In this document: positions 3,138 to 64,000 of the stretch, one piece after another | Layout: the number at the start of each line of letters is the position of its first letter | Numbering within the stretch: the stretch's first letter is position 1 | Source of the DNA: Candidatus Woesebacteria bacterium | Lineage (GTDB): Bacteria > Patescibacteriota > Microgenomatia > UBA1400 > UBA12108 | Length of the DNA stretch: 64,000 nt | Assembly (NCBI GenBank): GCA_018060845.1 | Contig: JAGOVG010000001.1 | Span: 152,740 to 216,739, forward strand | Reading direction: 5' to 3' | Translations under genes and position numbers: made by a program | The notes under the pieces: generated by a model | Databases searched by the model: none | Told to the model about the DNA's origin: nothing | The model's input: the letters and a program-made list of their open reading frames with translations, nothing else

Positions 3138-3419
3138 TCAGAAGCCAAAGTTGAATTGAGTAACTGGTGCACCAGTGAGATTTTCGATTAAGAGTAAGAT
3201 CAGCCAGGAGACAATGGCAAGGACCAGGCCACCAACCGCATAGCCAACAGTTTGTTTGCCACCCTGCAACCCCTTAGGGTCTCCACCACTGGTTAAGATC
3301 TTAAAACCACCAACTAAGATCATGATAAAAGCTACCATGCCAATTAGTGGGATCATGGCGGATAGAACGTTGCCAAAGTAATCTGGTAGTTGGTCGAGGC
3401 GTGCGGCGTCTGAGTCCAT
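3138..3419 (-). CDS. Pilin-like small membrane protein (VirB2/TrbC-like, two TM)
   Basis: 93 aa. TM1 (LIGMVAFIMILVGGFKILTSGGDPKG), polar loop, TM2 (VGGLVLAIVSWLILLLIENL). It sits 2 nt upstream of the 956-aa gene, so the two are probably an operon. Confidence 0.6.
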   Translation of the reverse strand: MDSDAARLDQLPDYFGNVLSAMIPLIGMVAFIMILVGGFKILTSGGDPKGLQGGKQTVGYAVGGLVLAIVSWLILLLIENLTGAPVTQFNFGF

Positions 3420-3439
3420 GTCTGTAATTATAGTACAAA

Positions 3440-3470
3440 AACCCCGCTTACGCGGGGTTTATTGCAATGT
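3440..3470 (-). terminator. Rho-independent terminator (the hairpin is bidirectional) after the pilin gene 3486..3833
   Basis: Plus strand reads aaaaaCCCCGCttacGCGGGGtttatt. On the minus strand the stem CCCCGC/GCGGGG is followed by TTTTT. Confidence 0.6.
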
Positions 3471-3485
3471 TTGTAACAAAAAGTC

Positions 3486-3833
3486 TTAGTAAGCAGTTGG
3501 AGGCGTAATGTTGTCGTTGAGGATGCTGATACCAAAGAAGTATTGGATGATCAACATGACCGCCCAAGCAGAGGCTACGACTGCGAGACCAACTAGAGCT
3601 GCAGTGATGCGATCACGAGCTTCTTGGGTTTTGCCTTTGTCACCACCTGATGTAATCCATTGGATGCCACCCCAGATTAGATACATGAAGACGAGGAGAG
3701 CAGAAACGAGTAGTGCTCCCTGGACTGCACCCTTGATGAGAGTACCAATATTGGTGATTGCGACGTTGTCTGGCTTGCCAATTGAGAGGTCTGGAGCTGC
3801 TGGAGCTGCTAAGACTTTGGAAATTTCGAACAT
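3486..3833 (-). CDS. Pilin-like protein (VirB2/TrbC-like), paralog 1 of the array
   Basis: Conserved core YLIWGGIQWITSGGDKGKTQEARDRITAALVGLAVVASAWAV. Start moved to MFEISK because a strong RBS, AAAGGAGAAcatATG, sits just upstream. It has its own terminator. Confidence 0.7.
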   Translation of the reverse strand: MFEISKVLAAPAAPDLSIGKPDNVAITNIGTLIKGAVQGALLVSALLVFMYLIWGGIQWITSGGDKGKTQEARDRITAALVGLAVVASAWAVMLIIQYFFGISILNDNITPPTAY

Positions 3834-3891
3834 ATGTTCTCCTTTTATTACTTTATGATCTAAGTGTATCAATTATAGCAGGATTAGCAAG

Positions 3892-4266
3892 TTATTTGGT
3901 AATGCCAATCCCAAAGAAGTAGTCGACTAGTAAGTAGACGGCCCAAGCCGAGGCTACGATAGCTAGGCCAACTATAGCCTGGGTAATTTTGTTTCTAGCT
4001 TCTTCCAACTTTCCTTTGTCACCACCGGCCGTGATCCAGTTGATACCTCCGTAGACTAGGTACATAAAAGTGGCGAGCCCAGCTACTAGAATGACGGCCG
4101 AGAAGCTGCGGGAGACAAAAGTGCCAAGATCTTCGTTGATTGCCACGCGAGATTTGACTTGGTCATCCACATTGATGGCAAAGCTACCACCGGCGGCGAG
4201 TGCTACGGGCGTACTAGTTAAAAGTAGAAAGGTAAAAGTTGAAAGTCGGGTGAGTATTTTTTTCAT
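3892..4266 (-). CDS. Pilin-like protein (VirB2/TrbC-like), paralog 2
   Basis: Signal-peptide-like N-terminus, then YLVYGGINWITAGGDKGKLEEARNKITQAIVGLAIVASAWAV. Confidence 0.7.
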   Translation of the reverse strand: MKKILTRLSTFTFLLLTSTPVALAAGGSFAINVDDQVKSRVAINEDLGTFVSRSFSAVILVAGLATFMYLVYGGINWITAGGDKGKLEEARNKITQAIVGLAIVASAWAVYLLVDYFFGIGITK

Positions 4267-4304
4267 ATGTGGTCATTCCCGCCAATGCGGGACTTCGCTT
4301 ACGC

Positions 4305-4661
4305 TCAGCCTGCAGTGGGCCAGATAATGTTTAAGAGATCGACTCCGAGCGCTGATTCGATAAATTTGATTATGACGTAGCTTGCCGCGAGAACTGCAAG
4401 TCCAACTAAACCCTGAGTAATTTTGGCTCGACTCTCGTCAAGTTTTCCTTTGTCACCACCAGCCATAATCCAGTTGAGTCCACCCCAGAGGAAGTAAAGT
4501 AGAAAGGCGAGACCGCCTACGATAATGATGGTTTGCCAGAGCGTGGCCATGGTAATAGCAAATTGTTGAGGAGCACTATCAGGAGAGTCGCCCCCTGGCA
4601 CGGCTGTATTAGTTATCGCTGCGTGTACTTGAGTGACAAGTTGAAAGTTTGTAAAGTTCAT
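4305..4661 (-). CDS. Pilin-like protein, paralog 3
   Basis: FLWGGLNWIMAGGDKGKLDESRAKITQGLVGLAVLAASYVI. Variable N- and C-terminal tails. Confidence 0.7.
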   Translation of the reverse strand: MNFTNFQLVTQVHAAITNTAVPGGDSPDSAPQQFAITMATLWQTIIIVGGLAFLLYFLWGGLNWIMAGGDKGKLDESRAKITQGLVGLAVLAASYVIIKFIESALGVDLLNIIWPTAG

Positions 4662-4665
4662 AAAA

Positions 4666-5028
4666 TTAATTGAAGGTGATCCCCTGAATAATACTACCTG
4701 GTTCGAGGATGTTTAGACCTAGGGCAGAGCCCACGATCCAGACAATGGAGTAGGAGAGGACGATAATGATCAAACCTATGGCGCCACCCGTCATCATGCC
4801 CTTGGCTTTGTCGATCTTACCTTTGTCACCACCGGCCGTGATCCAGTTGAGGCCGCCAAGGAGGAAATAGAGGACAAAAGCAATGCCAGCAACTACGGTT
4901 AGCACAACTAGAGTATTGCTGATTAGTTTTTCAAAGGCACTAGTACTGCCCTCGATGCCACTACCAGGTTGGTATCCACCAGGAGTAGTAATCTGACTAA
5001 AGCTAGTGTCTGCCAAGATTTTTGACAT
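4666..5028 (-). CDS. Pilin-like protein, paralog 4
   Basis: FLLGGLNWITAGGDKGKIDKAKGMMTGGAIGLIIIVLSYSIV. Confidence 0.7.
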   Translation of the reverse strand: MSKILADTSFSQITTPGGYQPGSGIEGSTSAFEKLISNTLVVLTVVAGIAFVLYFLLGGLNWITAGGDKGKIDKAKGMMTGGAIGLIIIVLSYSIVWIVGSALGLNILEPGSIIQGITFN

Positions 5029-5031
5029 AAA

Positions 5032-5367
5032 TTAAAAACTCCCTGGTCCAGTAATGGTAGGAGATAAGATAGCTCCTGCATCGCCAAATAGGACAAAGGA
5101 GACAATGCCGGTAATCGCTGCTGCGCCTACCATGATGATTAAACCGAGGAGAGACATGTTGATTGAGTACATAGCAGCCTGGATCTTTTTCTCGTCCCCT
5201 CCGGCCGTGACGTAAGTAAAGCCAGAGATCATGAGATTAAAGAATGCGTACAATCCCGCTGCAACAAAAATAACGGTCACAATATTAGTGATAAAACTTG
5301 GTAACCCAGTGTTGACATCACCGTAGTTGGTTACTGGATTGTCGATGTTACCAAAGACGCTTGCCAT
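5032..5367 (-). CDS. Pilin-like protein, paralog 5 (diverged)
   Basis: Same two-TM topology. The motif is degenerated to TYVTAGGDEKKIQAAMYSINMSLLGLIIMVG. Confidence 0.6.
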   Translation of the reverse strand: MASVFGNIDNPVTNYGDVNTGLPSFITNIVTVIFVAAGLYAFFNLMISGFTYVTAGGDEKKIQAAMYSINMSLLGLIIMVGAAAITGIVSFVLFGDAGAILSPTITGPGSF

Positions 5368-5371
5368 AGAT

Positions 5372-5719
5372 TTATAGAATCTCTAGTCCGGTGACGATCT
5401 GAATAATCTGAATTATCCAGTACGAACCGAAGACTACTAATAGGCCCATTATAGCAAAAGTAATAGTTTTTTTGCCCTCTTCCATCTTGTGACTATCGCT
5501 GGCGCCACTTATCACATTAAATCCGCCGAGTACAAACATAAAAAAGAGCACTAGCCCTGCTGCGACATAGACGTTCGGGAGGATGGCGTTGATTAAGTCG
5601 CTCGCACTACCGTAGGTCGAGTCTGCGCTACTACCCTGGAAAATAAGCTTGTCACCTAAGTTAAATCCTGCCATGCCATTTATTATACCCTTTGGAGTAG
5701 AATATGGCACATGGAACAA
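5372..5719 (-). CDS. Pilin-like protein, paralog 6 (diverged)
   Basis: Two TM around the motif ISGASDSHKMEEGKKTITFAIMGLLVVFGSYWII. The real start may be the internal MAGFNLG at 5674, because 5711-5719 overlaps the divergent sigma gene. Confidence 0.55.
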   Translation of the reverse strand: MFHVPYSTPKGIINGMAGFNLGDKLIFQGSSADSTYGSASDLINAILPNVYVAAGLVLFFMFVLGGFNVISGASDSHKMEEGKKTITFAIMGLLVVFGSYWIIQIIQIVTGLEIL

Positions 5720-6250: not shown

Positions 6251-6470
6251 AGCCAAATTTTTGCAAGTAATAGAAAAGAAAGCTGTGGAGGAGAGAAAAA
6301 TCCTAGATACCGAATTGATGCCAAGCTGGGCTCGGGGGGTAGGAGAGTGGTTGGTGGTGAATCCGTGGCGGGTGATGGTACCTGTTTCGGGTATTTCGTA
6401 TATATTGTTTCGGACAGCGCTTGGCACTAATTTTCGGGAGTTGATATTGGGATTGTTTGGAGGATATTAA
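6240..6470 (+). CDS. Small single-TM protein, possible anti-sigma factor
   Basis: Its start overlaps the sigma stop (ATGcagagTGA). One TM (VMVPVSGISYILF). Role inferred from position only. Confidence 0.3.
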   Translation: MQSEAKFLQVIEKKAVEERKILDTELMPSWARGVGEWLVVNPWRVMVPVSGISYILFRTALGTNFRELILGLFGGY

Positions 6471-6473
6471 TTC

Positions 6474-6535
6474 GGACAACCGGAATACTCGGAGAGACAA
6501 GATGAATCAGAATAATCAGAAAATCAGAACAGGAG
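6474..6535. repeat. CGGACAACC-family repeat, copy A (head plus a 3x 9-bp AATCAGAA tail)
   Basis: tcggacaaccggaatactcggagagacaagatgaatcagaataatcagaaaatcagaa. Matches the copies at 40511, 43801 and 63231. Confidence 0.6.
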
Positions 6536-16756: not shown

Positions 16757-17339
16757 TAGTGTAATTATAGCCCCACTCCGCATAAAGCTTCGCTAGGGAC
16801 ACACTTCGCCTGACATATAGAATCATGTTCCATGAATTAGTTTTGTGTGTGGCCGTGCCACTGCGTAGCTCCGTAGGAGCGAAGTGTGGAGACGGAGGGC
16901 AGTGAGCCCTCGTCCGGAGCGAGTTTTTAACACCATCTACATACATAGATAAATTTATTTTTTAACCTCTCAACTATTAGGTATTTATCAGACCAAGATA
17001 GTTTTGAGGGTAGTCGTTTATATGGCCACGCCTGACTAGGGCGGGGTTATGGCTCATGTTTGTTTCCACCTACACCATTGCCATGAGCGACTCGGGTGTA
17101 AATGTCCTGGTTAAGCTCTATTACCCGCGAGGGTGTAGTTACCAAACAAGGAAGCAATAGCGCGATCTGCACTCTCTAAGAGAGAAACAAATTTACTATA
17201 TGCTGTCTGTGCAGTTTTAGTGACAGATATTTTTTGACGCTGTTTTACGACTTCTCTCGTCAAAGTCGGTATGCAGATGTTAAAGAACTGTCGCCTCGTC
17301 AAAGCAAGACGTCCCCAATAGGCTGTATTATAGCATAGT

Positions 17340-21805: not shown

Positions 21806-21842
21806 GTTTGCTTGTAAACCACTCTGGGTGTTTTATAATCTG
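21806..21842. repeat. Leader repeat, copy 3 (partial), abutting the 3' end of tRNA-Ser
   Basis: ttgtaaaccactctgggtgttttataatctgcgg aligns with the 5' half of copies 1 and 2. Confidence 0.45.
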
Positions 21843-21928
21843 CGGAGACGGTGAGATTTGAACTCACGCGTGTCTTGCGACACAAGAGGTTAGCAACCTC
21901 TCGCAATGGGCCACTATGCGACGTCTCC
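21843..21928 (-). tRNA. tRNA-Ser (anticodon GCU), class II with a long variable arm
   Basis: Minus strand reads GGAGACG-tc-gca..tgc-g-AGAGG-ttGCTaa-CCTCT, a long variable arm, then GTGAG-TTCAAAT-CTCAC-CGTCTCC-g. CCA is not encoded. Confidence 0.8.
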
Positions 21929-21969
21929 TTTGATATTCTCTGAATGATTGAAATTATAGCATTGAACTG

Positions 21970-22054
21970 CGGAAGGGAAGGGATTCGAACCCTTGGTGAG
22001 TTTCCCCACGGAGGTTTAGTAAACCTCTGCACTAGGCCACTATGCGACCCCTCC
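21970..22054 (-). tRNA. Class II tRNA (Ser-like) whose anticodon loop reads ttACTaa, an apparent ACU anticodon, which is non-canonical
   Basis: Minus strand reads GGAGGGG-tc-gca..tgc-a-GAGGT-ttACTaa-ACCTC, a 16-nt variable arm, then AAGGG-TTCGAAT-CCCTT-CCCTTCC-g. Confidence 0.6.
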
Positions 22055-40221: not shown

Positions 40222-40508
40222 AAGATATTGTAATGAATAAACTAAGAACTGTCATGGACCCAGAACTCCATATAAATATAGTGGACTTGGGGCTGATATA
40301 TGACGTGGTAATTAAGGGAAACGAGATTAGGGTGATTATGACACTGACTACTCCTGGATGTCCTCTAGCGCCTGTGATCGATAAACTAATCAAAAAGGCA
40401 CTCAGCGAACTAAAAGCGGATAGCGTGACTATTGAGCTCGTATGGGAGCCAGCATGGAGTGTTCGGAGGATGTCGGACGAGGGTAAGCTACAATTGGGGA
40501 TGATATAG
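40212..40508 (+). CDS. DUF59 / MIP18-family Fe-S assembly protein (SufT-like)
   Basis: VMDPELHINIVDLGLIYDV...TLTTPGCPLAPVI. Confidence 0.7.
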   Translation: MITKDIVMNKLRTVMDPELHINIVDLGLIYDVVIKGNEIRVIMTLTTPGCPLAPVIDKLIKKALSELKADSVTIELVWEPAWSVRRMSDEGKLQLGMI

Positions 40509-40510
40509 GT

Positions 40511-40575
40511 TGGACAACCAGAATACTCAGCGAATCGGAATGTCAGAATACCGGAATATCAGATACAATTATCAC
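40511..40575. repeat. CGGACAACC-family repeat, copy B
   Basis: ttggacaaccagaatactcagcgaatcggaatgtcagaataccggaatatcagatac. Confidence 0.6.
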
Positions 40576-42995: not shown

Positions 42996-43862
42996 ATGTC
43001 TGATATCGATATTAAGCGAACAGCGAATGGACTCCGTGCTGACACCCTCAAAATGGTACATGCAGCTGGAGCTGGACACATAGCGGGACCACTATCCTCG
43101 GCAGAAATCATTGCAACGCTATATTTTACTGATTTAGTAGACCTGGCCAAAGACAAGATAGTACTTTCGTGTGGCCACTACGTACCAGTGCAGTATGCGG
43201 CACTGTCGCGATTGGGATACATACCAAGGGGTGAGCTATCGAGCTTTATGCAAGCAGGTAGTAGATTGCCTGGCCACCCAGAGCGAGGGATGACACCAGG
43301 GATTGAAGTGTCGGCAGGACCGCTGGGGCAGGGCGTCTCAGTCGCAGTTGGTATGGCCTTGGGGATGAAGATGCGGCATCAGAAATCAGAGTTAAATAAT
43401 GAAAGAGAGGGGAGGGTGTACTGCATCGTGTCTGACGGAGAGATCCAAGAAGGACAGGTGTGGGAAGCATTTAACCTGGCAGTACGCAGGCAGTTAGATA
43501 ACCTAATTTTTATCTTAGACAGAAATAGAATCCAGATAGGACATTTTATTTCTGAGGTAGCTACGTACGGCAATGTCGAGGGTAGGTTTGAAGCTTTTGG
43601 GCTGCATACCCTAACAGTTGATGGGAATGATGGAGTTAGCGTTTATAGAACAATTGCGAATGTAAAAGGTGTAAAAGGATCGCCTTTCATGATTGTTGCA
43701 AATACAGTGGCAGGCAAAGGGGTGTCTTTTATGGAGAATGATCCCAAGTGGCATGATAAAGCTATTACTGATCAAGAGCTATCTGATGCACTATGTGAAC
43801 TCGGACAACCGGAAAACTCGGAGCGCCAGAAAGTCGGAACATCAGATCATCTGAACCTCTGA
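42996..43862 (+). CDS. Transketolase, N-terminal (TPP-binding) subunit of a split enzyme
   Basis: AGAGHIAGPLSSAEIIATLYF and GHP...GSLGQG-type motifs. The C-terminal tail (PENSERQKVGTSDHLNL) is encoded by the CGGACAACC repeat. Confidence 0.8.
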   Translation: MSDIDIKRTANGLRADTLKMVHAAGAGHIAGPLSSAEIIATLYFTDLVDLAKDKIVLSCGHYVPVQYAALSRLGYIPRGELSSFMQAGSRLPGHPERGMTPGIEVSAGPLGQGVSVAVGMALGMKMRHQKSELNNEREGRVYCIVSDGEIQEGQVWEAFNLAVRRQLDNLIFILDRNRIQIGHFISEVATYGNVEGRFEAFGLHTLTVDGNDGVSVYRTIANVKGVKGSPFMIVANTVAGKGVSFMENDPKWHDKAITDQELSDALCELGQPENSERQKVGTSDHLNL

Positions 43863-43908
43863 TTCTCTGGGTTACTGAATATCTGAGTGTTCTGATTGTC
43901 TGAAAGGA
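43801..43908. repeat. CGGACAACC-family repeat, copy C: head plus about seven phased ~9-10 bp TCTGAW units, spanning the tkt N/C intergenic spacer
   Basis: tcggacaaccggaaaactcggagcgccagaaagtcggaacatcagatcatctgaacctctgattctctgggttactgaatatctgagtgttctgattgtctgaaagg. Confidence 0.6.
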
Positions 43909-44883
43909 ATGAATATGTATAACAGCAAATTATTATTACCAGAGTGGAGAACGCCAACCCTCAAAGCAATTCGCAGTGGAGTAGCTGCAGGACTCGAGAG
44001 TATCGCGAGTGATGAGCGCGTGGTCGTCTTATCGGGCGACCTAGCAGAGAGCGTTAAGATCCAGGATTTTGCAGAAAAGTACCCGGAGCGATTTGTTGAA
44101 GTCGGGGTAGCAGAGCAAAACATGGCGGGGGTTGCGGCTGGGCTCTCATTTACCGGCCATATCCCGTTTATGGCGAGCTATGCTACTTTCTCACCTGGCC
44201 GTAACTGGGAACAGATCCGGGTGTCTATCGCTCTCTCAAAGGCGAACGTTAAGATAATTGGCAGCCATGCTGGTGTATCTGTAGGGGTTAACGGACCATC
44301 ACATATGGGGACTGAAGACATAGCTATTATGCGAGTGTTACCTAATATGGTGGTACTAGCTCCCGCTGATGCTAATGAGTGTGCGAGCGCAATAGCCGCG
44401 AGTTATCACCATGGTGGCCCAGTCTACATCCGGACTACTAGACCAGACACACCAGTGTTTTTGAAACCTAGAGATTTTGAGATAGGTAAAGCTTGGACCC
44501 TCCGAGAGGGGCGAGATTTAACGATTGTAGCCTGTGGGATCCAGGTTTATCAGAGTCTATTAATCGCTGAGCGATTGTCGAAGCTCGGGATAGAGTGTGA
44601 AGTAATTAATGCGAGTTCTATCAAACCAATAGATAGCGAAACTATACTCTATAGCGCTGAGCGAACTGGGCGAGTAGTAACCATCGAAGATCATCAAATA
44701 TCTGGTGGGTTAGGTGGGGCAGTAGCTGAAGTGTTGGGTGGTATTGGGGTGCCACAGCTTAGGCTCGGGATCAAGGATTCTTTTGGGATAAGTGGAAAGT
44801 GGGAAGAGGTGTATAAAGCGATGGGGATAGATCAAGTTAGCCTCGAGCAGGCTGTGATAGACTACTATCATGACAAATTATGA
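43909..44883 (+). CDS. Transketolase, C-terminal (pyrimidine-binding plus C-terminal domain) subunit
   Basis: VGVAEQNMAGVAAGLS...SYATFS...IGSHAGVSVGVNGPSHMG. Confidence 0.8.
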   Translation: MNMYNSKLLLPEWRTPTLKAIRSGVAAGLESIASDERVVVLSGDLAESVKIQDFAEKYPERFVEVGVAEQNMAGVAAGLSFTGHIPFMASYATFSPGRNWEQIRVSIALSKANVKIIGSHAGVSVGVNGPSHMGTEDIAIMRVLPNMVVLAPADANECASAIAASYHHGGPVYIRTTRPDTPVFLKPRDFEIGKAWTLREGRDLTIVACGIQVYQSLLIAERLSKLGIECEVINASSIKPIDSETILYSAERTGRVVTIEDHQISGGLGGAVAEVLGGIGVPQLRLGIKDSFGISGKWEEVYKAMGIDQVSLEQAVIDYYHDKL

Positions 44884-57395: not shown

Positions 57396-57581
57396 GATTT
57401 TGATCTAGAAGCGCTAGATTGACCAACAACTCTCGAAGTTCTAGAGTGAATGTAGGTTTAACAATTTAACGAGATATTGGATAAGGAAGTAGGGTGAAAT
57501 ACCCTCACTGTGCCGCAACGGTTAAAGTCCGGAACTTGCCAATATTCTCGCCTTATTACGCATCCTCCGCGCGAGAGGATG

Positions 57582-59004: not shown

Positions 59005-59463
59005 ATGCAATGTCCATACTGCCATCACGAGGATACTTCCGTCCTCGAGTCGCGTATCACAGCCGAAGGTGGTGCGATGAGGCGCAGACGTGAGTGTGTT
59101 AAGTGTAGTAAGCGTTTTACCACCTACGAGCGAGCTGAGGGAGTAGATATTAGAGTGGTCAAAAAGACAGGCAAGGTAGAGGACTTTGATAGAGAGAAGC
59201 TAAAAAGAGGGGTGATGAAGGCTACCTGGAAACGTCCAGTCTCTATGGAGCAGATCGAGGCAATGGTTGACGAGATAGAAAGGATCCTTAGGCGTAAGAC
59301 TACAACTGAAGTTAGGAGTTGGGAGGTAGGTAATCTTGTGATCAATAGATTAAAAAAGATTGATCCACTGGCATATTTACTATTTGCTAGTGTGTACAGA
59401 GAATTTGAGAACTTGTCTGATTTTGAAGAAGAAATTAAAAAACTAAAGGAACCTGCCCAATGA
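59005..59463 (+). CDS. nrdR: Transcriptional repressor NrdR (zinc ribbon plus ATP cone)
   Basis: MQCPYCHHEDTSVLESR...RRRECVKCSKRFTTYE. Confidence 0.85.
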   Translation: MQCPYCHHEDTSVLESRITAEGGAMRRRRECVKCSKRFTTYERAEGVDIRVVKKTGKVEDFDREKLKRGVMKATWKRPVSMEQIEAMVDEIERILRRKTTTEVRSWEVGNLVINRLKKIDPLAYLLFASVYREFENLSDFEEEIKKLKEPAQ

Positions 59464-61481
59464 AAATCACCAAACTGAACAAAAATGCTGCTGCTATTAT
59501 GGTAAATCGCTATAGCTTGAGGGATGACTCAGGGCACCCTGTTGAGTCACCTGCAGAGATTTTGATGCGTACTGCTAGAGTAGTCGCAGAAGCCGAGAAC
59601 AACTACAGAAGCAGTGGTGACACCTCGATGGAAGTGAGAGAAAAGTTTTTTGAGATGTTATACGAGATGAGGTTTGTGCCAAATGGTCGTACTATGGCTA
59701 ACGCAGGGACTAAGTATGGCCAGCTAGCAAACTGTTTTGTATTGCCGGTTGAAGATGATCTAGGCAAAGGAACTGACTCGATATTTTCTGTGCTTCGCAA
59801 GGCTATCCTAACACTGCAAACTGGCGGGGGAGTAGGTTTTTCTTTTGGGCGGATAAGGCCGAAAGAGGCATCAATTAGCACAACCAAAGGTAAAGCAACT
59901 GGAGCTGTATCTTTTATCAAGGTGTATGACACAGCTTTTTGGGTAATCGGCCAAGGTGGGGGTAGGCGTAGTGCGGCTATGGCTGTCCTACCTGTATGGC
60001 ATCCAGACATTTACGAATTTGTGAGATGTAAAGCGACAGAGGGACAGATTACCAACTTTAATATCTCAGTTGGGATAACAGATGAGTTTATGACGGCAGT
60101 TGCCAAGGATGAGGATTTTTCACTGCGCCACCCTGAAAATGGAGAACTATATCGAATGGTTCCGGCACGAGAATTATTTGCGGAGATTGTAAAGTTTGCT
60201 CATAAAAATGGCGAACCAGGTGTACTGTTTCTTGATGCTGCCAATAGAAGTAATCCTGTTCCACATCTATACAAACTCGAGGCAACAAACCCATGTGGAG
60301 AACAGTTCTTGGGTCCATACGAAAACTGCTGTTTGGGGAGTTTGAATCTTAGAGAACATGTAAAGTTAGCAAAAAATGATAAGTTAAAAGTTAAAAGTTA
60401 TATTGTGGATTGGGAAAAGTTAGCAGAGACGGTGGAATTATCGGTTAGATTTTTGGACAATGTGGTCGATGCTAATAAATATGTCTCGGCAGTACCAGAG
60501 CTCGAAGAAGCTGCCCACAAAGTGCGCCGCATTGGTTTGTCTGTGATGGGGTTATCAGACATGATGTATATGACCAATGTTCGATATGGTTGTGATAAAG
60601 GCCAGGAGCTGGCATCACAACTCATGGAGTTTATACGCTACCACTCGATGAGAGCTTCGATAGAACTCGCTCGGGTTAGAGGACCATTCCCTGGTATAAA
60701 CGGCAGTATTTACGATCCACAAAAAGTAACCTGGACAGTACCAAAGCCAAGAGTCGTTCATAAATCTGACTTTGGAAGACCAGAACTAGATTGGAAACTA
60801 ATTACAAAAGGATTAAAGTCTAACGGGATTCGAAATGGGGCTCAGACTACAGTTGCTCCAACCGGAAGCATTGCCACTATATCAGGACTTGAGGGGTATG
60901 GATGTGAGCCAGTATTTGCATTATCTTATATCCGCCACACGAGAGAGGGTGCAGAAAAAGAAGGCAAAGAATGGCGTGAAATGTACTACGAGAGTAGTCT
61001 TTTTGAATCTGCGATGAAGCGAGAGGGCATGAGTAAAAGCCAGAGGAACCAACTGTTTGCCGAAGTAAGAGACAATGGAGGGAGTTTGAAGGGAATAAAA
61101 GGTGTACCCAAACAGATTGCTGACACTTATGTAGTGTCATCTGACCTTAGTGTCGAAGAACACGTCCGGATGCAGGCCGTGATGCAGGCATGGATTGATA
61201 ACTCGATCAGTAAGACCATTAACTTCCCCAGTACTGCGACAGTTGACGAAGTGGCAGAGGCTTATCAACTAGGCTGGAAGCTGGGACTTAAGGGCATGAC
61301 AGTCTATGTAGAGGGGTCAAGAGAGCAGGTAGTACTAGAGAAGAAGAGTGCTCCATTTGAAACAAAAGAAGACAAGCAAGTAACATCTGAGGAGCTGTGT
61401 CCAGAATGTGGAACACCCATGCGGAGAGAAGAGGGGTGTTCTACTTGCCCTAGTTGTGCGTACTCTAAATGTGATAAATAG
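59460..61481 (+). CDS. nrdJ: Class II (adenosylcobalamin-dependent) ribonucleotide reductase, paralog a (no ATP cone)
   Basis: [44 protein letters not shown] and a C-terminal CPECG...CSTCPSC zinc ribbon. Confidence 0.8.
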
Positions 61482-61490
61482 GACATTTAT

Positions 61491-63380
61491 ATGACAAAAC
61501 CAAAAATAATTGAACCAAAACTGACGAAAAATGCGCAAGAAGTAGCTAAGAAGCGTTATTTGCGGACAGATATGAATGGAGTTGTTGTTGAGACTCCGGG
61601 AGAAATGTTGTGGCGAGTAGCCTATCACATGGCCAAACCAGAAGTTGCCTGGGGGACTAATGGCATAGTGATGGAGACAGCCGCTCGGTTTTATGAGCGA
61701 ATGGCGTCTCTCAAGATGGTATGTGCTGGCAAGGCAATGTTTGAGGCGGGGAACCCTGGGGGGACCGGACAATTATCTTCTTGTTTTGTGTTGCCAATAG
61801 AGGATTCGATCGGCAAGATTTTTAAGACTTTGGGTGATGCGGCGGTTGTACATAAAAATAACGGGGGTACTGGCTTTAACTTTAGCAAAATTAGGCCACA
61901 CGGGGATAAGGTAAAGAACGTGCCGGGTGCATCATCGGGACCGGTTGATTTTATCAAGGCGTACTCGGCAGCACTGGCTCAGATTTTGCAGGGCGCAAAA
62001 AGACAGGGCGCCAACATCGCAATTTTAAATGCGAACCACCCGGACATAGAGGAGTTTATTGATCTAAAAGCACAGGACGGGACGATTAAAAACTTTAATG
62101 TGTCGGTGGGTGTAACTGACTCATTTATGGAGGCAGTGGAAGGTGACAAATATTGGAATTTGGTAAACCCAAGAAATGGAGAGGTAGTTAAGAAAATTAA
62201 GGCAAAAACACTATTTAATAAGATTGCAGAAGCTGCGTGGAGGACGGGCGACCCAGGTCTTATGTTCTTGGACAATACAGAGCGTGGCAACACTGTTCCT
62301 AATTTTGGCAAACTAGATGCCACTAATCCGTGTGGGGAGATTGCACTGTTTCCTTATGAATCATGTAACTTAACTAGTATTGATTTGGCGAGACACCTTA
62401 AGAAGAGTAAGAAGGGGTATGAGATAGACTACAAAGAGCTTGGTGAGACAGTGCGACTAGGGGTTAGATTCCTCGACAACATGATAGAAGTGAATGCGTA
62501 CCCAGTCTCTGAGATTGAGGCAACGGTTAAAAATGGTAATCGGAGGATTGGACTAGGTGTCATGGGATTTGCGCATGTACTGTACAGGATGGGGATTCCT
62601 TACAACAGTAGCGACGCAGTAAAACTAGCCAAGGAAATGTCCAAATTTATATACGAGACTGCAGCTGAAATGTCATCTGAGCTAGCTGAAGTGAGAGGAA
62701 ACTTTAACAACTGGGATCTCTCAATCTACCCTGCAAAAGGACAGCCGATGCGCAACTGCGCGGTGACGATGATTGCGCCTACTGGGACGATTTCGATCCT
62801 AGCGGACACGAGTAGTGGAATAGAGCCAGTTTTTAGTTTGGTCACGAAGCGCAGAACTTTTTATGAAGATGATAAGTCTAACCACTCAACAAAAGAGCTT
62901 CTCATGGTTGACCCTGTTTTTGAAGAATATATTGGAAAGAGAAAAGATATTCTAGAACAAGTAGCAAATGGAGATTACTCAGGACTAACTCCTTTGGAGC
63001 GAAAGTTGTTTGTCACTACACACCAGATAGAACCCGAGTGGCATGTGAAGATACAAGCGGCGTGGCAGAAGTATTTTGATAACTCGATTAGCAAGACAGT
63101 TAATTTTGGACACGAGGCGAAGGTTGAAGATGTTAAGACTGTATATATGCAGGCATGGAAGCTGGGATGTAAGGGTGTCACGATTTATCGAGACGGGAGT
63201 AAGGGAGATCAAGTTTTGAGTACTGTAAAATCGGACAACCAGAATACTCAGAGTGTCGGTGACTCAGAACAATCTGAGAGCCAAAGTGAAGAGTTGGTAT
63301 GTCCTGAGTGTGGTGGGAAGCTACACAAACAAGATGGCTGCTCAAAGTGTATTGATTGTGGATATAGCGTATGCGGATAA
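61491..63380 (+). CDS. nrdJ: Class II ribonucleotide reductase, paralog b (no ATP cone)
   Basis: SSCFVLPIEDS, NPCGEIALFPYESCNLTSIDL and a C-terminal CPECGG...CSKCIDC. Its linker carries CGGACAACC repeat copy D. Confidence 0.8.
   Translation: MTKPKIIEPKLTKNAQEVAKKRYLRTDMNGVVVETPGEMLWRVAYHMAKPEVAWGTNGIVMETAARFYERMASLKMVCAGKAMFEAGNPGGTGQLSSCFVLPIEDSIGKIFKTLGDAAVVHKNNGGTGFNFSKIRPHGDKVKNVPGASSGPVDFIKAYSAALAQILQGAKRQGANIAILNANHPDIEEFIDLKAQDGTIKNFNVSVGVTDSFMEAVEGDKYWNLVNPRNGEVVKKIKAKTLFNKIAEAAWRTGDPGLMFLDNTERGNTVPNFGKLDATNPCGEIALFPYESCNLTSIDLARHLKKSKKGYEIDYKELGETVRLGVRFLDNMIEVNAYPVSEIEATVKNGNRRIGLGVMGFAHVLYRMGIPYNSSDAVKLAKEMSKFIYETAAEMSSELAEVRGNFNNWDLSIYPAKGQPMRNCAVTMIAPTGTISILADTSSGIEPVFSLVTKRRTFYEDDKSNHSTKELLMVDPVFEEYIGKRKDILEQVANGDYSGLTPLERKLFVTTHQIEPEWHVKIQAAWQKYFDNSISKTVNFGHEAKVEDVKTVYMQAWKLGCKGVTIYRDGSKGDQVLSTVKSDNQNTQSVGDSEQSESQSEELVCPECGGKLHKQDGCSKCIDCGYSVCG
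63231..63290. repeat. CGGACAACC-family repeat, copy D, in-frame inside nrdJ paralog b
   Basis: tcggacaaccagaatactcagagtgtcggtgactcagaacaatctgagagcc, encoding SDNQNTQSVGDSEQSES. Confidence 0.6.
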
Positions 63381-64000
63381 ATAAAATTCTTAAAAGAGAT
63401 GGTAGGGAAGTGGAGTTCTCGTTGCCAAAACTATCGGATGCGATCTGGAAGGCAGGGCGAGAAACTCACGAATTTGATGAAAAAGAAGCCAAGCGCCTAG
63501 CGGAAATAACAAGTGCTCTAGTTGAGAAGTCGCTAAAAGATAAAGAGATAGTAACGGTTGAAAAAGTGCAGGATTTTGTAGAGCAAGTCCTCATGGCGGC
63601 AGGACATTATCAGACAGCAAAGGCCTACATCCTGTATCGCGCAGCGAGGAGTGAGGAGAGGCGAGTAGAGCGGATTATTGGCGTTAAGGATGATCTTGAT
63701 CTTTCCCCTAACCAACTAAAAGTGTTGCGTAATCGATATTTACTAAAAGATGAAGATGGCAGAGTGATTGAGACGCCGTCGGAAATGTTTAGAAGAGTAG
63801 CCAAGAACCTGGCAATTGTTGAAAAGACAAATAAGAGAAAGAAAATAGAAGACGATTTTTATGAGGTAATGGCTCGTTTGGAGTTTCTGCCTGCCGGTAG
63901 AACTCTCAATAATGCGGGCACTCCCCAATCACAGCTGGCTAACTGTTTTGTATTGCCTGTTGAAGATTCGATGGAGGGGATATTTGACGCGGTTAAGTGG
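63371..64000 (+). CDS. nrdJ: Class II ribonucleotide reductase, paralog c, with an N-terminal ATP cone; partial, continues past the window end
   Basis: MRINKILKRDGREVEFSLPKLSDAIWKA is an ATP cone. ...[28 protein letters not shown]. Confidence 0.7.
   Translation, partial: MRINKILKRDGREVEFSLPKLSDAIWKAGRETHEFDEKEAKRLAEITSALVEKSLKDKEIVTVEKVQDFVEQVLMAAGHYQTAKAYILYRAARSEERRVERIIGVKDDLDLSPNQLKVLRNRYLLKDEDGRVIETPSEMFRRVAKNLAIVEKTNKRKKIEDDFYEVMARLEFLPAGRTLNNAGTPQSQLANCFVLPVEDSMEGIFDAVKW

What the first reader, a model, noticed from the sequence alone, without database searches (positions are those of the whole stretch)
43795..43910. Interspersed CGGACAACCRGAATACTCRG repeat with phased TCNGAW tails, four copies, three of them in the same reading frame as the host gene
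A 22-bp head (T[CT]GGACAACC[AG]GAA[AT]ACTC[AG]G) occurs at 6474, 40511, 43801 and 63231. Each is followed by a degenerate tail of about 9-10-bp periodic TC(A/T/G)GA(A/T) units: three perfect AATCAGAA 9-mers in copy A, and about seven phased TCTGAW units in copy C. Copy C fills the spacer between the two transketolase subunit genes and supplies the last about 17 codons of the N-terminal subunit. Copies A and B sit at the 5' end of genes and are in-frame with them, reading (S/M)DN(Q/R)NT(Q/R). Copy D lies inside nrdJ-b, in the linker before its C-terminal zinc ribbon, in the same frame (SDNQNTQ...). Helical-turn periodicity is typical of iteron-like protein-binding arrays. Frame preservation suggests the element can be carried inside coding regions as a tolerated hydrophilic linker. 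This would make it a small non-autonomous element or a dual DNA/protein-level repeat.
Basis: seen in the sequence. Interest (0 to 1): 0.6.

Follow-up and report, generated by a model that had tools for sequence, protein, structure and literature searches.

The report
Hairpin-element arms scattered among CPR genes

Summary
The head TCRGACAAYCRGAAWACTCRGA occurs at 6472, 40510, 43801 and 63231, all on the + strand (0.01 expected). Each head is followed by TCNGA units, spaced 8-9 nt rather than 9-10. Copy C also carries an inverted head at 43882-43903, making it a 103-nt hairpin. Copies A, B and D are left arms only.

Related metagenome contigs hold 43 distinct arms of three kinds: hairpins of 65-110 nt (plus one 29-nt remnant) filling gene junctions, solo arms, and arms inside ORFs. 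Syntenic relatives have empty sites with overlapping genes where copies B and C sit, and deletion derivatives at the C site.

In nrdJ orthologues the same DNA is read in two different frames, so conservation is at nucleotide level, not protein level.

In six genomic contexts, 121-aa PF05635 (23S_rRNA_IVP) genes lie between two such arms. The four closest subfamilies carry this exact head.

I conclude that the window holds ORF-less derivatives of an intervening-sequence-like insertional element. No IVP gene lies in the 83 kb examined. How the element moves is unknown; binding of the arms by IVP is my inference. The iteron reading and 'frame preservation' are not supported.

The parts
6472..6531 (+). 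Copy A: solo left arm. Head at 6472-6493, followed by TCRGA units including three AATCAGAA units at 6505-6529. It is intergenic, starting 1 nt after the stop (6468-6470) of a 76-aa ORF that follows an ECF sigma gene. It runs into the start region of a small membrane-protein gene (ATG 6502, or TTG 6544).
40510..40566 (+). Copy B: solo left arm. The head has 2 mismatches (TTGGACAACCAGAATACTCAGC) and is followed by five 8-nt units. It sits between the FeS-assembly gene (stop 40506-40508) and the NTPase_I-T gene (ATG 40579). In relatives these two genes overlap by ATGA.
43801..43847 (+). Copy C, left arm: head plus six TC/CC-R-GA units. It is translated as the tail of the transketolase N subunit.
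43851..43903 (+). Copy C, right arm: seven [TA]CTG[AG] units ending in the inverted head GAGTGTTCTGATTGTCTGA (43885-43903). It holds the tktN stop codon TGA at 43860-43862.
43803..43862 (+). Element-encoded C-terminal extension of the transketolase N subunit (GQPENSERQKVGTSDHLNL plus stop). Most orthologues end 0-5 residues after the preceding ...EL.
43904..43917 (+). AAGGA Shine-Dalgarno-like sequence and start codons (ATG 43909 and 43915) of the transketolase C-subunit gene, directly after the right terminus.
63231..63280 (+). Copy D: left arm, with one TCTGA unit at its end. It is translated in frame (SDNQNTQSVGDSEQSE...) in the variable linker between the RNR barrel (…YRDGSKGDQVLS) and the C-terminal CPECGG zinc ribbon.

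Best explanation
The four repeats are ORF-less remnants of an insertional hairpin element that is widespread in Microgenomates/Woesebacteria (candidate phyla radiation). There is one complete 103-nt hairpin (C) and three solo left arms (A, B, D).

An arm consists of a conserved 22-nt terminus, TCRGACAAYCRGAAWACTCRGA, followed by 3-6 further 8-9-nt units with a TCNGA core. TCNGA is its own reverse complement apart from the centre base. An array of TCRGA units therefore pairs with an inverted array of TCYGA units, which gives a long imperfect stem.

In related genomes the complete element is about 480 nt and runs: left arm, a 121-aa gene of family PF05635 (23S rRNA intervening-sequence protein, a pentameric four-helix-bundle family), right arm. 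This is the architecture of the ORF-bearing intervening sequences (IVS) of rRNA genes. Here, however, the element sits between and inside protein-coding genes.

Shown:
- The element inserts at gene junctions that are overlapping or tightly spaced in relatives.
- It decays quickly by internal deletions.
- Inside ORFs, every copy found runs in the TCRGA (left-arm) direction. I attribute this to stop codons: TCTGA arrays at 8-nt spacing place TGA in all three frames within three units.

Inferred:
- The window copies are passive. In the transcript, hairpin C probably behaves like an IVS stem, a double-stranded RNA that RNase III could cut between tktN and tktC. Copy D is simply translated as linker.
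- Spread depends on the long form. The toroidal pentameric IVP protein possibly binds the repeated TCNGA units. No step of the movement has been observed.
For: 1. Repeat family. The heads are far above chance in the window. The same terminus is found on 21 metagenome contigs and on several CPR genome contigs. In all there are 43 distinct arms with one shared unit layout.

2. Insertion, with presence/absence at syntenic sites.
- L142 (TktN 76% identical): tktN/tktC overlap (ATGTATAA) and the FeS/NTPase genes overlap (ATGA), so there is no element at the C and B sites.
- L141: the B site is empty, and the C site holds a derivative lacking the head and the right arm.
- L139: the C site holds a 29-nt remnant with only the two termini.
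- Of 120 TktN homologues, only P0121 shares the full extension; P0131 and P0133 end ELGQPETLIV.

3. Nucleotide-level rather than protein-level conservation. The nrdJ linker carries the head in frame SDNQ in the window, L128 and L136, but in frame GQSENS in L137. Orthologue linkers vary from about 5 to more than 60 residues, and some are too short to hold the element (P0006, P0024, P0042).

4. Long form. PF05635 genes (E = 3e-21) occur in six different genomic contexts (L143, L150, L151, L152/L153, L158, L163). All are flanked by inverted TCNGA arrays with predicted duplex energies of -50 to -64 kcal/mol. The four closest subfamilies (74-100% identical proteins) carry the same 22-nt head at both ends, with 0-2 mismatches and in one arm a 1-nt insertion. 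The last residues of IVP (HSIW[KR]SDKF) are encoded by the right arm. In L133 the cassette is inverted relative to L129/L143 at the same M50-peptidase locus.

5. Placement. Full hairpins start 2-13 nt (usually 2-5) after the upstream stop and end 11-24 nt before the next start, or lie between convergent stops.

6. IVS background. IVS are bordered by complementary sequences, some carry an S23p (PF05635) ORF, they are cut by RNase III, and a mobile origin has been proposed (PMC4990558). IVP ORFs occur in rRNA insertions of CPR bacteria (10.1101/2024.02.27.582315).
Against: - No IVP gene and no long form lies in the window or in the 19 kb fetched beyond it. Whether a long form exists elsewhere in this genome is not shown.
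- No target-site duplication is visible, and no known transposase is associated. 'Mobile' therefore rests on presence/absence and on multiple contexts, not on a mechanism.
- The termini at orthologous sites stay almost unchanged while the interior diverges faster than the flanking coding DNA (L119 vs L088). That could mean host-level function, or gene conversion among copies, rather than passive decay.
- Solo arms point with the G-rich strand, which is usually also the sense strand, in about 20 of 26 cases. A purely passive remnant model explains this only for copies inside ORFs.
- RNase III cleavage and IVP binding are untested.
Confidence: 0.72

Rival explanations
1. Host-beneficial RNA element. 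The hairpin and the purine-rich solo arms are leader or intercistronic mRNA signals (processing site, mRNA stabiliser, translation tuner) kept by selection. IVP genes merely sit inside such hairpins.
For: - The copies sit exactly at gene boundaries, and most solo arms are sense to the downstream gene.
- The termini are conserved at orthologous sites while the interior diverges.
- A Shine-Dalgarno-like AAGGA follows the right terminus in the window, L139, L141 and L125.
- Each hairpin is much more stable on one strand.
Against: - The stable (G-U) strand is the sense strand in 4 cases and the antisense strand in 3. Instead it follows GC skew in 8 of 10 cases, as expected from C-to-T mutation bias.
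- The tkt site shows full, truncated, minimal and empty states among close relatives, which looks like decay rather than maintenance.
- The element occurs next to unrelated genes, between convergent genes, and in antisense orientation (L052/L123).
- There is no Rfam match.
- No terminator or promoter call at the elements exceeds background.
Confidence: 0.15
2. Iteron-like double-stranded DNA array. The TCNGA units are binding sites for a host DNA-binding regulator or replication protein.
For: TCNGA is a dyad-symmetric core, as expected for a dimeric DNA-binding protein, and it is repeated 5-13 times per copy.
Against: - The spacing is 8-9 bp, so successive sites rotate by about 275-310 degrees and are not on one face of the helix.
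- The copies lie inside operons, inside ORFs and between convergent genes.
- No rep gene or origin was seen next to the copies. GC skew does not change sign across the window.
- The number and spacer sequence of units vary freely.
- TCNGA is not unusual in the rest of the window (observed/expected 0.79).
Confidence: 0.05
3. Protein-level low-complexity linker. The similarity reflects selection for hydrophilic S/D/N/Q/E-rich peptides.
For: Copy D and the TktN tail are translated and hydrophilic. NrdJ linkers in relatives are also S/N/Q/E-rich.
Against: - The same DNA is read in different frames: window copy D vs L137, and copy C vs copy D.
- Most copies are intergenic, and some are antisense to the flanking genes.
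- The right arms are inverted copies of the head.
Confidence: 0.02
4. Classical MITE or REP element moved by a conventional transposase (for example an IS200/IS605-type Y1 enzyme or RAYT acting on single-stranded hairpins). The IVP gene is only cargo.
For: - It has inverted termini, no visible target duplication, and a hairpin that is more stable on one strand.
- Solo arms show an orientation bias with respect to the G-rich strand, presumably the leading strand. This recalls replication-coupled single-strand transposition (from my own knowledge of IS608, not tested here).
Against: - No transposase gene was noticed among the genes called next to the copies.
- The only gene found between two arms is IVP, in all six contexts.
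- The strand polarity has a simpler mutational explanation.
Confidence: 0.1

Closest known systems
ORF-bearing intervening sequences (IVS) of 23S/16S rRNA genes (Leptospira, Coxiella, Brucella, Xanthomonas; also CPR rRNA insertions) encoding S23p / 23S_rRNA_IVP (PF05635)
   Same: Like the long form found here, the IVS of Coxiella burnetii (428 nt) is a few hundred nt long, bordered by complementary sequences that form a long stem, and encloses a PF05635 ORF. IVS also have a sporadic, presence/absence distribution, and a mobile origin has long been suspected (PMC4990558; 10.1101/2024.02.27.582315). The IVP found here matches PF05635 and the pentameric structure 2GSC.
   Different: The elements here are not in rRNA. 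They lie between protein genes and inside ORFs. Their arms are arrays of 8-9-nt TCNGA units with a conserved 22-nt terminus. They have many ORF-less and one-armed derivatives. RNase III excision has not been tested.
Short ORF-less IVS of enterobacterial 23S rRNA (about 90-110 nt extended hairpins in helices 25 and 45)
   Same: Copy C is a hairpin of about 100 nt with no ORF, the short counterpart of an ORF-bearing form.
   Different: Location is an mRNA spacer and a coding tail, not an rRNA helix. No sequence relationship was tested.
Rickettsia palindromic elements (RPE)
   Same: Both are small palindromic repeats in a reduced genome that invade coding and non-coding regions and are tolerated in frame within proteins (PMC1166351).
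   Different: The lineage and sequence are unrelated. RPEs have no known ORF-bearing parent. Here, only the stop-free arm persists in ORFs.
MITEs and REP/REPIN elements
   Same: Both are short, multi-copy and extragenic near stop codons, with inverted termini, insertion polymorphism and internal-deletion derivatives.
   Different: No target-site duplication was seen. The related long form encodes a four-helix-bundle protein, not a transposase or RAYT. The arms are built from tandem 8-9-nt units.
Avd, the accessory protein of diversity-generating retroelements (same PF05635 superfamily)
   Same: Avd is also a small pentameric four-helix-bundle protein, and it works with a nucleic-acid element (PMC10053308 lists PF05635; the function is from my own knowledge).
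   Different: No reverse transcriptase or template/variable repeats appear among the genes called next to the IVP cassettes.

Membership tests
rRNA-type intervening sequence (IVS) element | Bordered by complementary sequences that form an extended stem-loop | tested here: met
   Copy C folds at -44.5 kcal/mol, z = -5. Ten full hairpins were found in relatives. Long forms have arm duplexes of -50 to -64 kcal/mol.
rRNA-type intervening sequence (IVS) element | ORF of family PF05635 between the arms (ORF-bearing subclass) | tested here: met
   Met for the long forms in relatives (L129/L143, L150, L151, L152/L153, L158, L163). Not met for the four window copies, which have no ORF. No IVP gene lies in the 83 kb of this contig that was examined.
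rRNA-type intervening sequence (IVS) element | Inserted in a helix of a 23S (or 16S) rRNA gene | tested here: not met
   All copies lie between or within protein-coding genes. No rRNA match was found in the window or in the 10 loci scanned.
rRNA-type intervening sequence (IVS) element | Excised from the transcript by RNase III without religation | not testable with these tools
   Needs RNA end mapping or in vitro cleavage.
MITE | Short, non-coding, multi-copy, with terminal inverted repeats | tested here: met
   Copy C and the hairpins in relatives have inverted 22-nt termini. There are four loci in the window and 43 distinct arms overall.
MITE | Target-site duplication flanking the element | tested here: inconclusive
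   No shared direct repeat flanks the full copies or long forms. The empty and filled sites compared are too diverged to define the junctions exactly.
MITE | Derived from an autonomous element that encodes a transposase with the same termini | tested here: not met
   The only longer element with the same termini encodes PF05635, which has no known transposase activity.
REP/REPIN-RAYT | 20-40-nt imperfect palindromes, and an associated RAYT (Y1 transposase) gene | tested here: not met
   A solo arm is not itself palindromic (copies A and B fold no better than shuffles). No such gene appears among the genes called at the fetched loci. This was not an exhaustive search.
Iterons | Direct repeats phased with the DNA helix (about 10-11 bp, or 21-22 bp) next to a replication initiator gene or origin | tested here: not met
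   The period is 8-9 nt. The neighbours are housekeeping genes. GC skew does not change sign across the window.
Intrinsic terminator | GC-rich hairpin followed by a T run | tested here: not met
   There is no terminator-like call at any copy. Copy C is followed by AAGGAATGAATATG.
Any Rfam RNA family | Covariance-model match | tested here: not met
   No match at gathering score anywhere in the window. Only chance-level hits appear at E up to 10 around copy C.

The most novel reading that the evidence does not exclude
The PF05635 'intervening-sequence protein' is the working partner of its own element. Its pentameric ring would bind the tandem TCNGA units of the arms, as RNA or single-stranded DNA, and promote insertion, inversion or maintenance. 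That would make IVS-type elements a transposase-less class of mobile DNA that colonises protein genes as well as rRNA genes in CPR bacteria, with the window's repeats as its non-autonomous offspring.
Probability: 0.2. Interest if true: 0.85.

Novelty: new variant of a known kind. Interest (0 to 1): 0.6.

Why it matters
Intervening sequences of rRNA genes and their PF05635 ORFs have been known for some 30 years. It is still unclear how they spread or what the protein does (PMC4990558).

Here the same architecture, arms plus an IVP gene, appears outside rRNA in several genomic contexts. It comes with a swarm of ORF-less and one-armed derivatives and with clear empty sites in syntenic relatives. 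That is the kind of evidence usually taken to show mobility.

The element also has a simple repeated motif (TCNGA every 8-9 nt) that could be tested directly for binding by the protein.

Practical consequences:
- Gene callers place start codons inside these arms, for example the NTPase gene at 40540.
- The arms add tails and linkers to conserved enzymes (transketolase, ribonucleotide reductase).
- They split formerly overlapping, presumably translationally coupled, gene pairs in very compact genomes.

Tried and rejected
1. The genome-contig scan used a pattern with three N positions, which was too loose. Most of the 115 hits were chance matches in unrelated phyla. Seven loci proved genuine after filtering for the periodic tail.

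2. RNA-level selection inferred from G-U pairs. Each hairpin is 12-18 kcal/mol more stable on one strand. That strand is sense in 4 cases and antisense in 3, and it follows GC skew in 8 of 10 cases. C-to-T mutation bias on the G-rich strand explains this.

3. A promoter just upstream of the head (-10-like flanks) or a terminator function. Promoter-like calls are at background level, and there is no terminator call at any copy.

4. The idea that solo arms were inserted next to a host sequence resembling the right terminus. Best matches downstream of 21 solo arms are no better than at random positions (mean 8.5 vs 8.3 of 13).

5. Compensatory co-evolution of the two arms in the long forms. The test is uninformative, because all arms are arrays of similar units and any two align at about 75%.

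6. TCNGA as a restriction-modification site that is avoided elsewhere. Observed/expected is 0.79, within the range of other N-centred palindromes.

7. Rfam scans at gathering and permissive thresholds found nothing relevant.

8. A profile of 43 arms found no further copies in the window or in 19 kb beyond it.

9. Literature searches found no description of such elements in CPR bacteria and no paper citing the assembly.
Full report
**1. The observation**

The pattern TYGGACAACCRGAAWACTCRG matches at 6472, 40510, 43801 and 63231. All four are on the + strand, against 0.01 matches expected in shuffles. Each head is followed by units with a C[AGT]GA core. In copy C the successive distances are 8,9,8,8,8,8,8,16,8,9,8 nt. 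Chains of at least four such motifs occur only at these loci and at one other place in the window. The period is therefore 8-9 nt, not a helical turn.

A search with the extended head found a fifth arm. Positions 43882-43903 on the - strand read TCAGACAATCAGAACACTCAGA, an inverted head with three transition differences. Copy C is thus a 103-nt imperfect palindrome: six TC/CC-R-GA units, a short loop, then seven [TA]CTG[AG] units. As RNA it folds at -44.5 kcal/mol (z = -5.0). Copies A and B fold no better than shuffles. A profile built from 43 arms finds nothing else in the window.

**2. Context in the window**

The window is part of contig JAHZTO010000034.1 of assembly GCA_020049755.1. The closest named homologues and relatives are Woesebacteria and Microgenomates.

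- **Copy A** starts 1 nt after the stop of a 76-aa ORF that follows an ECF sigma gene. It precedes a small membrane-protein gene that starts at ATG 6502, or at TTG 6544 in the deposited annotation.
- **Copy B** starts 1 nt after the stop of an FeS-assembly gene and precedes the NTPase_I-T gene.
- **Copy C** replaces the end of the transketolase N-subunit gene. It adds GQPENSERQKVGTSDHLNL and the stop codon, and runs to 5-11 nt before the C-subunit start codon.
- **Copy D** is translated in the linker between the RNR barrel and its C-terminal CPECGG zinc ribbon. This gene is one of three tandem full-length RNR alpha paralogues, not a split gene.

**3. Relatives elsewhere**

My first collection scan was too permissive and returned mostly chance hits. 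Filtering for the periodic tail left seven genuine loci from CPR genomes. A stricter scan of metagenome contigs gave 21 loci. Across these loci the element takes three forms:

- **Full hairpins of 65-110 nt.** They fill short spacers, starting 2-13 nt (usually 2-5) after the upstream stop and ending 11-24 nt before the next start. In L119 and L088 they lie between two convergent stop codons.
- **Solo arms.** Most run in the sense direction of the neighbouring genes, but some are antisense (L052/L123).
- **Arms inside ORFs.**

All arms share one layout: TCRGACAA, then YCRGAAWAC, then 3-6 units of TCRGANNN.

**4. It is an insertion**

Syntenic loci were recovered through TktN orthologues and compared at the junctions.

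- **L142:** tktN and tktC overlap (ATGTATAA), and the FeS and NTPase genes overlap (ATGA). Both sites are empty.
- **L141:** the B site is empty. The tkt site holds a fragment identical to the inner left part of copy C, without the head and without the right arm.
- **L139:** the tkt site holds TCGGACAACCGGAAACTTTGATTGTCTGA, the two termini only.

Most TktN orthologues end 0-5 residues after ...EL. Only P0121 shares the full extension, and P0131/P0133 end ELGQPETLIV. The element therefore entered a junction that was originally overlapping, and has since been whittled down by internal deletions.

**5. Nucleotide-level, not protein-level, conservation**

In nrdJ orthologues the head sits at the same place. 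It is read as SDNQ(N/K)TQ in the window, L128 and L136, but as GQSENSDSQ in L137. Copy C is also read in the GQPENSE frame. Orthologue linkers between YRDGSKGDQVL and CPECGG range from about 5 to more than 60 residues, and some are too short to hold the element. This rules out a purely peptide-level repeat. It also removes the 'frame preservation' argument.

A simple rule explains which arm survives in ORFs. At 8-nt spacing, TCTGA places TGA in frames 2, 1 and 0 within three consecutive units. TCRGA has no stop in its core. This follows directly from the sequence.

**6. The long form**

In L129 two inverted heads flank a 131-aa ORF, of which 121 aa match PF05635 23S_rRNA_IVP (E = 3e-21). Homologues of this protein were collected and their DNA fetched.

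In six different genomic contexts the 121-aa gene lies between a left and a right arm made of TCNGA units. The contexts are M50 peptidase/CofD, next to a CLIPPER-domain gene, convergent with M50, M50 with another downstream gene, next to NDK, and upstream of MreB. Predicted arm-arm duplexes are -50 to -64 kcal/mol.

The four closest subfamilies (74-100% identical proteins) carry the same 22-nt head at both ends. They show 0-2 mismatches, and one arm has a 1-nt insertion. The two more distant ones (64-65% identical) keep the GAAAACTCRGA units but lack the GACAA unit. The last residues of the protein (HSIW[KR]SDKF) are encoded by the right arm.

In L133 the cassette is inverted relative to L129/L143 at the same locus, as inverted repeats allow.

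IVP matches the pentameric four-helix-bundle structure 2GSC.

**7. Comparison with what is known**

Classical IVS are bordered by complementary sequences. Some carry an S23p (PF05635) ORF. They are cut out of rRNA by RNase III, and they have long been suspected to be mobile, possibly with the ORF involved (PMC4990558). IVP ORFs have been reported inside 16S and 23S rRNA insertions of CPR bacteria (10.1101/2024.02.27.582315).

I found no description of IVP cassettes with periodic arms outside rRNA, nor of ORF-less derivatives among protein genes. In-frame invasion of protein genes by palindromic repeats is known from Rickettsia (PMC1166351).

**8. What the element probably does, and what is only inferred**

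Shown: family membership of the four copies, insertion, decay, and the link to IVP cassettes.

Several functional readings were tested.

- **RNA selection.** Each hairpin is much more stable on one strand. That strand is sense in 4 cases, antisense in 3, and follows GC skew in 8 of 10. C-to-T bias on the G-rich strand predicts exactly this.
- **Promoter or terminator.** No calls above background.
- **Rfam.** Nothing relevant.
- **Iteron reading.** The 8-9-nt period and the gene context argue against it.

Two facts leave room for function, or for gene conversion among copies. The termini stay nearly invariant at orthologous sites while the interior diverges faster than the flanking coding DNA. 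Solo arms lie on the G-rich strand in about 20 of 26 cases.

My working model is as follows. The window copies are passive remnants. Transcribed hairpin C is a likely RNase III substrate, by analogy with IVS stems. Spread depends on arm-IVP-arm cassettes, with the toroidal pentamer a candidate binder of the repeated TCNGA units. The last two steps are inference.

**9. Limits**

- No IVP gene lies in the 83 kb of this contig that I could read.
- No target duplication was seen.
- Ideas tested and dropped are listed under Tried and rejected.

Noticed in passing
window 21969-22054 (-), next to 21842-21928 (-): ARAGORN calls a tRNA-Ser with anticodon ACT beside a tRNA-Ser(GCT). Both are confirmed as tRNAs by Rfam. 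An A34 serine tRNA would be unusual and may be a miscall.
   Followed up: no
window 57474-57545 (+) and 59005-64000: An AdoCbl-II riboswitch lies upstream of a 436/459-aa ORF. That ORF is followed by NrdR and three tandem full-length RNR alpha paralogues (673, 629 and 755 aa). The third starts at about 63371 and overlaps the end of the second.
   Followed up: partly
window 16884-17316 (-): Rfam finds a tmRNA of 433 nt (87.6 bits) against a 374-position model. ARAGORN does not report it. It may carry an insertion or be a permuted or unusual form.
   Followed up: no
window 40540: The deposited annotation starts the NTPase_I-T gene at ATG 40540, inside copy B, which adds 13 element-encoded residues. 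Orthologues without the element start at the equivalent of 40579.
   Followed up: yes
whole window: GC skew is positive throughout (+0.04 to +0.28), including the stretches whose genes are on the - strand. The skew is very strong, and in related contigs it predicts which strand of each hairpin carries the G-T wobbles.
   Followed up: partly
L119 2602-2811: A group I intron (73.9 bits) lies in a related contig about 1.3 kb from a full hairpin copy. Its host gene was not examined.
   Followed up: no
window 3138-5719 and L168 7462-9998: A run of small genes with T4SS_pilin-like domains lies next to 956-aa and larger ORFs that have no Pfam match. It sits upstream of the ECF sigma gene near copy A.
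   Followed up: no
NrdJ homologues P0001, P0005, P0036, P0038 (no DNA fetched): Other orthologue linkers show 8-residue-periodic S/V/Q-rich peptides (for example SQSVSKSVDQPSSESVDQ). This suggests other variants of 8-nt-unit arrays translated in the same linker.
   Followed up: no
L166 21572-21890 (about 9 kb beyond the window's right end): A tyrosine integrase gene and a TraG-like gene lie beyond the RNR cluster, so an integrated element may be nearby. No copy of the repeat is there.
   Followed up: no
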